Source: Nemertoderma westbladi
Taxonomy: Eukaryota > Animalia > Xenacoelomorpha
Direction of reading: 5' to 3'
Assembly: GCA_032718475.1 (NCBI GenBank)
Contig: JAUCBJ010000791.1
Coordinates: forward strand, 1-39,956
DNA: 39,956 bases
The notes below the pieces were generated by a model, which saw nothing but the letters and a program-made list of their open reading frames with translations, made no database searches and was not told the origin of the DNA. How positions within the stretch are numbered: position 1 is the first letter of the stretch; each line of letters opens with the position of its first letter. Of this stretch, positions 20,625 to 24,488 are shown in pieces. A program made the translations under genes and the position numbers.

Positions 20625-20801
20625 AGTAACGTCGCCTATGTCAGTCAACAGGCCTGGATACAGAACGCCACACTGCGTGATAATATATTATTCTGCACCC
20701 CAATGGATAAACATCGGTATTGCAAAGTTCTACAGGCCTGTGGTCTGAAACCAGATTTAAAGCAGTTACATGCTAGGGACATGACAGAAATAGGTGAAAA
20801 G
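20625..20801 (+). CDS. ABCC1: ABCC1-like exon 5 (Q-loop); not in the ORF track
   Basis: cttacag| acceptor. Translated by hand: SNVAYVSQQAWIQNATLRDNILF...DMTEIGEK; donor AAG|gttagt. Confidence 0.93.
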
Positions 20802-23800
20802 GTTAGTCTGGGAGACCGACCGAAATAGGTGGAAAGGTTAGTCCGGGGGACCGACCGAAATAGGTGGAAAGGTTAGTCCGGGGGACCGACCGAAATAGGT
20901 GGAAAGGTTAGTCCGGGGGACCGACCGAAATAGATGGAAAGGTTAGTCTGAGGGACAGACCGAAATAGGTGAAAAGGTTAGTCTGGGGGACAGACCGAAA
21001 TAGGTGAAAAGGTTAGTCTGGGGGACAGACCGAAATAGGTGAAAAGATTAGTCCGGGGGACTGACCGAAATAGGTGAAAAGGTTAGTCCGGGGGTCCGAC
21101 CGAAATAGATGGAAAGGTTAGTCTGAGGGACATGACCGAAATAGGTGAAAAGGTTAGTCTGGGAGACCGACAGAAATATGAAAAGGTTGGTCTGGGAGAC
21201 AGACAGAAATAGGTGAAAAGGTTAGTCTGGGGGACAGACCGAAATAGGTGAAAAGGTTAGTCTGGGGGACAGACAGAAATAGGTGAAAAGGCTAGTCTGG
21301 GGGACAAACAGAAATAGGTGAAAAGGTTAGTATGGGAGACCGACCGAAATAGGTGGAAAGGTTAGTCCGGGAGACCGACAGAAATATGAAAAGGTTGGTC
21401 TGGGAGACAGACAGAAATAGGTGAAAAGGTTAGTCTGGGAGACCGACCGAAATAGATGGAAAGGTTAGTCTGAGGGACATGACCGAAATAGGTGAAAAGG
21501 TTAGTCTGGGAGACCGACAGAAATATGAAAAGGTTGGTCTGGGAGACAGACAGAAATAGGTGAAAAGGTTAGTCTGGGAGACCGACCGAAATAGGTGGAA
21601 AGGTTAGTCCGGGGGACCGACCGAAATAGGTGGAAAGGTTAGTCCGGGGGACAGACCGAAATAGGTGAAAAGGTTAGTCCGGGGGACAGACCGAAATAGA
21701 TGGAAAGGTTAGTCTGAGGGACAGACAGAAATAGGTGAAAAGGTTAGTCTGGGGGACAGACCGAAATAGGTGAAAAGGTTAGTCCGGGGGACCGACCGAA
21801 ATAGGTGAAAAGGTTAGTCTGGGGGACAGACAGAAATAGGTGAAAAGGTTAGTCTGGGGGACAGACAGAAATAGGTGAAAAGGTTAGTCTGGGGGACAGA
21901 CAGAAATAGGTGAAAAGGTTAGTCTGGGGGACAGACAGAAATAGGTGAAAAGGTTAGTCTGGGGGACAGACAGAAATAGGTGAAAAGGTTAGTCTGGGGG
22001 ACAGACAGAAATAGGTGGAAAGGTTAGTCTGAGGGACATGACCGAAATAGGTGAAAAGGTTAGTCTGGGAGACCGACAGAAATATGAAAAGGTTGGTCTG
22101 GGAGACAGACAGAAATAGGTGAAAAGGTTAGTCCGGGGGACCGACCGAAATAGGTGGAAAGGTTAGTCCGGGGGACCGACCGAAATAGATGGAAAGGTTA
22201 GTCTGAGGGACATGACCGAAATAGGTGAAAAGGTTAGTCTGGGAGACCGACAGAAATATGAAAAGGTTGGTCTGGGAGACAGACAGAAATAGGTGAAAAG
22301 GTTAGTCCGGGGGACCGACCGAAATAGGTGGAAAGGTTAGTCCGGGGGACCGACCGAAATAGGTGGAAAGGTTAGTCCGGGGGACAGACCGAAATAGGTG
22401 AAAAGGTTAGTCCGGGGGACAGACAGAAATAGGTGAAAAGGTTAGTCTGGGGGACAGACAGAAATAGGTGAAAAGGTTAGTCTGGGGGACAGATAGAAAT
22501 AGGTGAAAAGGTTAGTCTGAGGGACAGACCGAAATAGGTGAAAAGGTTAGTCTGGGGGACAAACAGAAATAGATGGAAAGGTTAGTCTGGGAGACAGACA
22601 GAAATATGTGAAAAGGTTAGTCTGGGGGACAGACAGAAATATGTGAAGAGGTTAGTCTGAGGGACAGACCGAAATAGGTGAAAAGGTTAGTCTGGGAGAC
22701 AGACAGAAATATGTGAAAAGGTTAGTCTGGGGGACAGACAGAAATATGTGAAAAGGTTAGTCTGGGGGACAGACAGAAATAGGTGAAAAGGTTAGTCTGG
22801 GGGACAGACAGAAATAGGTGAAAAGGTTAGTCTGGGGGACAGACAGAAATAGGTGAAAAGGTTAGTCTGGGGGACAGACAGAAATAGGTGAAAAGGTTAG
22901 TCTGGGGGACAGACCGAAATAGGTGAAAAGGTTAGTCTGGGGGACAGACATAAATAGGTGAAAAGGTTAGTCTGAGGGACAGACCGAAATAGGTGAAAAG
23001 GTTAGTCTGGGCAAACAGAAATAGATGGAAAGGTTAGTCTGGGAGACAGACAGAAATATGTGAAAAGGTTAGTCTGGGAGACAGACAGAAATAGGTGAAA
23101 AGGTTAGTCTGGGGGACAAACAGAAATAGATGGAAAGGTTAGTCTGGGGGACAAACAGAAATAGATGGAAAGGTTAGTCTGGGAGACAGACAGAAATATG
23201 TGAAAAGGTTAGTCTGGGGGACAGACAGAAATATGTGAAAAGGTTAGTCTGAGGGACAGACCGAAATAGGTGAAAAGGTTAGTCTGGGGGGGGGGACAGA
23301 CAGAAATATGTGAAAAGGTTAGTCTGGGGGACAAACAGAAATAGATGGAAAGGTTAGTCTGGGAGACAGACAGAAATATGTGAAAAGGTTAGTCTGGGGG
23401 ACAGACAGAAATATGTGAAAAGGTTAGTCTGGGGGACAGACAGAAATAGGTGAAAAGGTTAGTCTGGGGGACAGACAGAAATAGGTGAAAAGGTTAGTCT
23501 GGGGGACAGACAGAAATAGGTGAAAAGGTTAGTCTGGGGGACAGACAGAAATAGGTGAAAAGGTTAGTCTGAGGGACAGACCGAAATAGGTGAAAAGGTT
23601 AGTACGGGGGACAGACAGAAATATGTGAAAAGGTTAGTCTGGGGGACAGACAGAAATAGGTGAAAAGGTTAGTCTGGGGGACAGACCGAAATAGGTGAAA
23701 AGGTTAGTCTGGGGGACAGACAGAAATAGGTGAAAAGGTTAGTCTGAGGGACAGACCGAAATAGGTGAAAAGGTTAGTCTGAGGGACAGACCGAAATAGG

Positions 23801-24460
23801 TGAAAAGGTTAGTACGGGGGACAGACAGAAATATGTGAAAAGGTTAGTCTGGGGGACAGACAGAAATAGGTGAAAAGGTTAGTCTGGGGGACAGACCGAA
23901 ATAGGTGAAAAGGTTAGTCTGGGGGACAGACCGAAATAGGTGAAAAGGTTAGTCTGGGGGACAGACAGAAATAGGTGAAAAGGTTAGTCTGAGGGACAGA
24001 CCGAAATAGGTGAAAAGGTTAGTCTGGGCAAACAGAAATAGATGGAAAGGTTAGTCTGGGAGACAGACAGAAATATGTGAAAAGGTTAGTCTGGGGGACA
24101 GACAGAAATAGGTGAAAAGGTTAGTCTGGGGGACAGACCGAAATAGGTGAAAAGGTTAGTCTGGGGTCAGACCGAAATATGTGAAAAGGTTAGTCCGGGA
24201 GACAGACAGAAATAGGTGAAAATGTTATTCTACTAGACAGACAGAAATAGATGAAAAGGTTAGTCTGGGAGACGAGATAGACCGAAATAGGTGAAAAGGT
24301 TAGTCTGGGATACGAGACAGACATAAATAGATGAAAAGTTTAGTCTGGGAGACGACACAGACATAAATAGGATGAAAAGGTTAGTCTGGGAGACGAGACA
24401 GACCGAAATAGATGAAAAGTTTAGTCTGGGGGGCAGACCGAATTATGTGACGAGGTTAGT
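20775..24460. repeat. 35/36-bp minisatellite made of the exon-5 3' end plus donor site (~105 copies)
   Basis: Unit GGGGACAGACAGAAATAGGTGAAAAG|GTTAGTCTG; the first copy is the exon itself. Confidence 0.97.
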
Positions 24461-24488
24461 CAGAAACTAATGTACATAATGGTTACAG

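What the first reader, a model, noticed from the sequence alone, without database searches (positions are those of the whole stretch)
20775..24488. An intron built from ~105 tandem copies of its own 5' splice site
Seen: the unit is the last ~27 nt of exon 5 (AGG GAC ATG ACA GAA ATA GGT GAA AAG) plus the first 9 intron nt (GTTAGTCTG). Some copies keep the exact 36-nt ATG form (e.g. ~21126, ~22032). Most units therefore carry the same AAG|GTTAGT as the real donor, plus a second TAG|GTGA. An in-frame TAG at 20826-20828 precedes every later donor, so using any of them truncates the protein before LSGGQ. Inference: the spliceosome must choose 1 of ~100 equal donors. The array could be silenced by exon definition, act as a U1 sink, or tune expression through NMD according to copy number.
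Basis: partly seen in the sequence, partly recalled or inferred. Interest (0 to 1): 0.85.

Follow-up and report, generated by a model that had tools for sequence, protein, structure and literature searches.

The report
Splice-donor minisatellite fills ABCC transporter intron
In an animal drug-pump gene (ABCC/MRP type), the end of one exon with its splice signal is repeated about 104 times and fills 99% of the next intron; this kind of repeat is already known from human and lancelet genes and is likely tolerated because the cell would use the first signal.

Summary
Intron 5 of an ABCC1/2-like gene (20802-24488, 3687 nt) holds 104 copies of the exon-5 end plus donor. 92 copies keep the real donor's AAG|GTTAGT, and a TAG at 20826-20828 truncates the product of all 100 downstream GT donors. 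Corrections: no copy equals the exon exactly, the TAG|GTG site is weak, and the stop is trivial (every shuffled 35-nt unit also truncates). The intron is old: its flanking exons (177 and 168 nt) match human ABCC2 exons 17 and 18.

This is a known class: human F7, IFI6, CBS, LMNB2, PDGF and ABCA7 VNTRs, and lancelet 'mirages'. In F7 the most upstream donor is selected. In ABCA7 (12-427 units), second-donor use is about 2% and independent of length. I found no clear selection on the donor motif and no structural masking. No RNA run was listed, so donor use here is inferred.

The scan has noted such arrays before on other DNA: at least eight other windows of this genome, plus mussel, urchin and abalone. 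Verdict: a large, likely neutral new member of a known kind. The U1-sink and NMD-rheostat ideas are unsupported.

The parts
20625..20801 (+). Exon 5 of the window's ABCC1/2-like gene (177 nt, NBD1 Q-loop region, ends ...EIGEK); its last 27 nt are the exonic part of the repeat unit
   Evidence: tblastn of homologues; six exons give 556 codons without a stop and have AG/GT ends; human ABCC2 exon 17 is 177 bp (PMC12275409)
20799..20807 (+). Real 5' splice site AAG|GTTAGT (cut after 20801), 7 of 9 matches to the consensus donor; its use is inferred
   Evidence: Only this donor joins exon 5 to exon 6 without a stop and with no gap against homologues; no RNA seen
20775..24463 (+). Junction-spanning minisatellite: seed unit 20775-20810 (27 exonic + 9 intronic nt) followed by 104 copies, mostly 35 nt; 39 unit types with duplicated blocks; degenerate 40-41-nt units at the 3' edge
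20826..20828 (+). In-frame TAG in the first intronic unit, which is 35 nt and lacks the T of the exon's ATG
21117..22232 (+). Region holding the four 36-nt ATG-type units (21117-21152, 21464-21499, 22023-22058, 22197-22232), each one base from the exon unit
24455..24488 (+). 34-nt intron tail after the last pseudo-donor, with a branch-point-like CTAAT (motif recalled) and a pyrimidine-poor acceptor
   Evidence: pyrimidine fraction 0.43 versus 0.71-0.79 for the other five acceptors
24489..24656 (+). Exon 6 (168 nt): LSGGQ signature and Walker B; equals human ABCC2 exon 18 (Gly758-Lys813)

Best explanation
This is a minisatellite whose first unit spans the exon-5/intron-5 junction of an ABCC1/2-like gene; it likely arose as a 36-nt tandem duplication that expanded to about 104 copies inside an old intron, and it is likely tolerated because splicing would take the first donor. 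Inferred steps: a unit that had lost one base (35 nt) spread by slippage or unequal exchange. The exon-5 acceptor pairs with the nearest, first-transcribed donor, while the copies lie in purine-rich sequence with no usable acceptor upstream and so define no exon. A small leak to copy 2 or 3 would carry a premature stop and be removed by NMD. Shown here: the anatomy, the age of the intron position, the block-wise internal structure, and the lack of good acceptors in the array. Not shown here: which donor is used.
For: Same anatomy as human F7 IVS7, where 50 constructs showed that the identical pseudo-sites are functional but only the most upstream one is used (PMC1557585; abstract, introduction and passages read). 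Its introduction reports, second-hand: IFI6 with 25 pseudo-sites (first two also used), CBS with 15-20 repeats (two also used), and LMNB2 and PDGF (authentic site only). In ABCA7 (12-427 units, unit begins with the donor GT), one-unit retention is 2 +/- 1% and independent of length. Lancelet mirages do not disturb splicing. Here: exon sizes equal human ABCC2 exons 17 and 18. 9 of 83 motif-bearing homologues break right after GEK/GER, 6 of them with V as a GT donor would give. The array is 28% pyrimidine, and 313 of 316 YAG sites in the intron have an upstream pyrimidine fraction of 0.43 or less. There are 39 unit types with repeated blocks (6 repeated 4-unit words versus a shuffle mean of 0.055, maximum 4). 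Minisatellites make up 15,046 of 22,883 nt of introns 1-5, most unrelated to junctions, so this gene gathers arrays anyway.
Against: None of the 9 common variant sites falls in the donor 9-mer (hypergeometric 0.05; 3 of 36 circular windows are as free). This is borderline and post hoc, but it points towards keeping the donors. The real acceptor is itself as pyrimidine-poor (0.43) as some array sites, so lack of acceptors is not a clean argument. In ABCA7 the array length did change expression and skipping of the next exon, so such arrays need not be neutral. The splicing precedents come from mammals and lancelets, and this animal is unidentified.
Confidence: 0.78

Rival explanations
1. ABCA7-like side effect: the first donor is used, but array length modulates the gene by another route, most likely in-frame skipping of exon 6 (168 nt, signature plus Walker B) or intron retention, which lowers active transporter.
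For: In ABCA7, skipping of the downstream exon rose 3.2-fold with VNTR length. Here the exon-6 acceptor is the weakest of six (0.43) and only 34 nt follow the last pseudo-donor. Loss of the equivalent exon impairs human ABCC2 (PMC12275409).
Against: Length polymorphism and RNA were not observed here. In F7, deleting monomers did not change splicing.
Confidence: 0.12
2. One reading: the copies compete as donors or soak up U1, so copy number tunes expression through NMD, and the array is kept by selection.
For: 92 identical donors; all downstream products truncated; no common variant in the donor 9-mer (borderline); IFI6 and CBS use copies 2-3 (second-hand).
Against: Truncation is the default for a 35-nt unit. 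Distinct substitution alleles are as dense in the donor as elsewhere (7/9 versus 23/27). In ABCA7 second-donor use was length-independent, and NMD inhibition showed no relation to length for the exon-18 event tested. F7 shows position beats competition.
Confidence: 0.04
3. The gene copy is decaying or silent, so the array faces no splicing constraint; or the array length is an assembly artefact.
For: Exon 5 has Arg where 195 of 197 motif-bearing homologues have Gly, plus His and Gln at two other conserved sites. No next exon was found in the remaining 15 kb, which is filled with mobile elements. No reads could be checked.
Against: 556 codons are open over six exons with AG/GT ends, and the Walker A, Q-loop, signature, Walker B and D-loop motifs are present (motif names recalled). 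39 unit types in ordered blocks with a degenerate edge are not what a collapsed or looped assembly would give (inference).
Confidence: 0.06

Closest known systems
Human F7 intron 7 37-bp VNTR (Borensztajn et al. 2006, PMC1557585; part 1 of 6 of the text and passages read)
   Same: First monomer spans the exon-intron boundary; identical pseudo-donors repeat into the intron; similar unit size.
   Different: 5-9 copies with 4 exonic nt in F7; here 104 copies with 27 exonic nt, filling 99% of the intron. Donor use was tested in F7 and not here.
Human LMNB2, IFI6 (6-16), CBS and PDGF junction minisatellites (known only from the introduction and reference list of PMC1557585; PMC306954 was not held)
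   Same: [quoted passage not shown]
   Different: Four to ten times fewer copies; IFI6 and CBS also use the two nearest copies.
Human ABCA7 intron 18 25-bp VNTR (De Roeck et al. 2018, PMC5954066; passages and section 21 read)
   Same: ABC transporter, NBD1 region; unit carries the donor GT; 12-427 units, so the copy number here is within range; use of the second donor gives a premature stop subject to NMD.
   Different: The ABCA7 VNTR starts at the GT rather than inside the exon; it has a shown effect on exon skipping and disease risk, while nothing functional is shown here.
Lancelet 'mirage' minisatellites: Adh3, troponin C, globins BflGb6 and BflGb9, PGBD5 (PMC3087553 and PMC3902484; passages read)
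   Same: Tandem copies of exon-intron boundaries in an invertebrate gene; edges diverge from the core; regular splicing reported.
   Different: The globin and PGBD5 cases read have about 2-6 units of 60-160 bp. The proposed intron-gain role does not apply here because this intron position is ancestral.

Membership tests
Junction-spanning minisatellite (F7-type VNTR / 'mirage') | Tandem array whose first unit spans a real exon-intron boundary | tested here: met
   Seed unit 20775-20810 spans the donor at 20801/20802; exon model; array
Junction-spanning minisatellite (F7-type VNTR / 'mirage') | Splice signal reiterated in most copies | tested here: met
   92 of 104 copies keep AAG|GTTAGT; 100 of 104 keep GT
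Junction-spanning minisatellite (F7-type VNTR / 'mirage') | Minisatellite turnover: variant units in duplicated blocks, diverged edge | tested here: met
   39 types, repeated blocks above shuffles, last units 9-12 alignment columns from the exon unit
Junction-spanning minisatellite (F7-type VNTR / 'mirage') | Regular mRNA made from the authentic, exon-adjacent site | not testable with these tools
   No RNA holder was listed, so no reads could be laid; inferred from the reading frame only
VNTR | Copy number varies between alleles or individuals | not testable with these tools
   One sequence only; no genome held; no runs listed
Intron gained by tandem duplication of an AG|GT site (Rogers model) | Intron position new and both ends derived from the duplicated coding segment | tested here: not met
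   Exon sizes and boundary match human ABCC2 exons 17/18; other animals' ORFs break at the same point; the exon-6 acceptor 24-mer has no copies
Splicing-regulating tandem repeat (ABCA7 type) | Splicing or expression tracks repeat length | not testable with these tools
   Needs alleles and RNA
ABCC1/ABCC2/ABCC3 (MRP) transporter gene | ABC membrane and NBD1 domains with best matches to MRP1-3 | tested here: met
   Pfam ABC_membrane and ABC_tran; top PDB sequence hits MRP1, ABCC3, ABCC2; named homologues mostly MRP1-type. Orthology within the subfamily was not tested.

The most novel reading that the evidence does not exclude
In this animal, junction-seeded arrays reach 100 to over 1,000 copies in many genes (scan notes, unchecked), and the exon end is itself the first unit of the array. 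Unequal exchange could therefore feed array variants back into coding sequence: the Arg at a Gly-conserved site lies on the first base of the unit, where both bases segregate in the array. Array length could also tune in-frame skipping of the signature/Walker B exon. The genome would then be a natural experiment on how donors are chosen among 100 equals and on why duplications seed at splice junctions.
Probability: 0.1. Interest if true: 0.55.

Novelty: new member of a known kind. Interest (0 to 1): 0.2.

Why it matters
As a single locus it adds one large example to a class described since the 1990s. Its use is as a test case: 92 identical downstream donors in a non-mammalian animal would show whether the 'first donor wins' rule from human F7 holds at ten times the copy number. 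The weak acceptor also gives a clear ABCA7-like prediction (exon-6 skipping rising with length). The better question is genome-wide, namely whether duplications seed at splice junctions more often than chance, and this window alone cannot answer it.

Tried and rejected
RNA evidence: the one run search (kind rna, 19845-20801) listed no holder. That is no evidence either way, and no reads could be laid. No whole genome is held, so there was no genome-wide count and no second allele.

Transcript-derived proteins: exon-3 and exon-5 searches among longer proteins gave at best 57% and 72% identity in the 120 rows listed of 129 and 175 hits. No protein of this gene turned up to show the junction; this is weak evidence.

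Hairpin at the junction as the seed of the duplication: rejected. The seed 36-mer folds no better than its shuffles (79% of shuffles as good for DNA, 18.5% for RNA) or than other exon 36-mers.

RNA structure hiding the copies but not the real donor: rejected. The commonest unit forms a 5-bp hairpin over +5..+9 (a 261-nt fold gave z -3.6, inflated by repetition). But the opening cost is 3.6 kcal/mol for the real donor versus a median 3.9 for copies (61 of 104 costlier), and the eight common substitutions do not raise masking (mean -0.85, p 0.78 against 78 possible changes). Covariation of +8 with -25 is not significant (p 0.15, 95 of 104 units scored).

Stop codon as design: rejected. New intron by the Rogers mechanism: rejected. 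Gradient of divergence from the exon along the array: none (Spearman -0.03). The unit core was not found elsewhere in the window on either strand.

One search used a wrong exon-1 donor, corrected. Literature searches gave no papers, 38 gave nothing on point, and the passages of PMC10078293 and PMC1488846 were uninformative. The organism was not identified; homologues say only that it is an animal.

Full report
Gene. The window starts with six exons of an ABCC1/2-like (MRP) transporter on the + strand: 105-534, 9548-9802, 16830-17180, 19845-20132, 20625-20801 and 24489-24656. tblastn with five homologues maps all six. Joined, they give 556 codons without a stop, with AG/GT ends. Pfam finds ABC_membrane and ABC_tran, and exon 6 aligns to MRP1 residues 765-820 and ABCC2 from residue 758. 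Human ABCC2 exon 17 is 177 bp and exon 18 is 168 bp, Gly758-Lys813 (PMC12275409, passages), the same sizes and boundary as exons 5 and 6. Among 85 new proteins, 83 carry the D-x-T-E-I-G-E-K-like motif. 74 continue into the signature and 9 break there, 6 with V (three of these are close to each other) and 3 with G. These look like exon read-throughs with an intron at or one base from the same place. The intron position is therefore older than the array.

Array. TRF reports 104.9 copies of a 35-mer at 20776-24461. Counting donor-register sites gives the real donor plus 104 copies; 92 copies have AAG|GTTAGT and 100 keep GT. The seed is the last 27 nt of exon 5 plus 9 intron nt. No copy is identical to it: four 36-nt copies differ by one base and the other 100 lack the T of the ATG. 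There are 39 unit types with repeated blocks (6 repeated 4-unit words versus a shuffle mean of 0.055) and a degenerate 3' edge. This is typical minisatellite turnover and argues against a simple assembly artefact (inference). Only 34 nt follow the last pseudo-donor, so 99% of the intron is array. Of 12 junction 24-mers only this one is copied.

Chance. The copies are far beyond chance as a repeat. That an array should sit on a junction is less surprising in this gene. Arrays fill 15,046 of 22,883 intronic nt. With 10 internal junctions x 35 nt over about 7,800 array-free nt, a random seed overlaps a junction about 4-5% of the time, or about 20% for five unit families (my arithmetic).

Consequences of mis-splicing. 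The TAG at 20826-20828 stops all 100 downstream GT donors. This is no sign of design: with the donor 9-mer fixed, 2000 of 2000 shuffled 35-nt units truncate at each of the first six donors, and 46% stop within the first unit. The 36-nt seed unit has no stop, so an array of it would have added 12 residues per copy in frame. The one-base loss makes any leak NMD-sensitive, but I cannot tell whether that was selected. The TAG|GTG site matches the consensus donor (recalled) at only 4-5 of 9 positions versus 7.

Why the first donor likely wins. In human F7, the first monomer of a 37-bp VNTR spans the exon 7 junction. The copies are functional, yet only the most upstream is used; killing it activates the next one; and only perfect-consensus copies compete (PMC1557585: abstract, introduction and passages). 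That paper cites IFI6, CBS, LMNB2 and PDGF as similar; I saw these only second-hand. In ABCA7 (12-427 units), retention of one unit is 2 +/- 1%, NMD-sensitive and independent of length, whereas skipping of the next exon rises with length (PMC5954066: passages and section 21). Lancelet mirages are reported not to disturb splicing (PMC3087553 and PMC3902484, passages); that lead came from earlier scan notes and I checked the papers. Here the array is 28% pyrimidine, and 313 of 316 YAG sites have a tract fraction of 0.43 or less, so copies have little chance to define an exon. The real acceptor is as poor (0.43), which weakens this argument and makes exon-6 skipping the most likely side effect. 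Each unit has about one G-run (103 in 104 units); such runs can favour an upstream donor (recalled, untested). Supplements of these papers were not read and may hold further donor-use figures.

Tests of a regulatory role. Distinct substitution alleles number 7 over the 9 donor sites and 23 over the other 27, which shows no purifying selection on the donor. Against my reading, none of the 9 common variant sites lies in the donor 9-mer (0.05; 3 of 36 windows); this is borderline and post hoc. Structure does not separate the real donor from its copies, and common variants do not strengthen masking. No RNA run was listed and no genome is held, so donor use, expression and polymorphism are untested.

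A side point. The first base of the unit makes the exon codon Arg where 195 of 197 motif-bearing homologues, among 205 redundant and insect-heavy proteins, have Gly. 89 of 104 copies have G there and 14 have A. The simplest path is exon (A, ATG), then loss of T, then A to G within a G-run, because the G-with-ATG form is absent. Feedback from array to exon is not excluded.

Context in the scan. One search returned eight notes on other pieces of this genome with junction arrays of up to about 1,300 copies (67 of 79 notes fit the look-up words, which is not a count of arrays). One search returned three from other genomes. Searches returned nothing near or similar to this locus. These notes are unchecked leads; one (GALNS) mentions splicing from an inner copy, which I could not test.

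Verdict. Observation confirmed; interpretation partly supported; new member of a known kind; interest 0.2.

Noticed in passing
window 17869-19844: A 24-nt pyrimidine-rich array (about 82 copies) runs to 10 nt before the exon-4 acceptor, which looks like a variant unit: the 12-mer ending at the A of the AG occurs 6 more times in the array, followed by T. The array has 0 AG in 1,966 nt (16 expected from composition, though one unit lacks AG easily), and the last upstream AG is at 17858. It is a copied polypyrimidine tract without the AG.
   Followed up: partly
window 644-5222 and 7101-9472: Two arrays of the same 35-nt unit (about 130 and 68 copies) in intron 1, separated by a 1.9-kb AT-rich spacer that has ACTGTA/ACTGAA-type repeats and a shared short sequence near both of its ends. 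The unit is unrelated to the junctions.
   Followed up: partly
window 14322-16652 and 20250-20388: A 13-nt array (about 187 copies, with long internal block repeats) in intron 2 and a 37-nt array (3.8 copies) in intron 4; neither spans a junction.
   Followed up: no
window 28523-36420 (+): Full-length-looking BEL/Pao LTR retrotransposon: 2310-codon open frame at 29081-36010 with DUF1759, Pao peptidase, integrase zinc finger and DUF5641; LTR starts at 28523 and 36023.
   Followed up: partly
window 36795-38972 (-): Intronless 726-codon frame with UvrD/REP-type helicase domains, on the strand opposite the ABCC gene, possibly cargo of a mobile element.
   Followed up: no
window 20763-20777: Exon 5 departs from homologues just at and upstream of the start of the copied stretch: Gln for Met/Ile/Val, His for Pro/Ser/Ala, Arg for Gly.
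   Followed up: partly
window 24900-26220 and 27430-28470: Short, interrupted frames that read like decayed mobile-element proteins; the one scanned (27646-28179) had no Pfam match.
   Followed up: no
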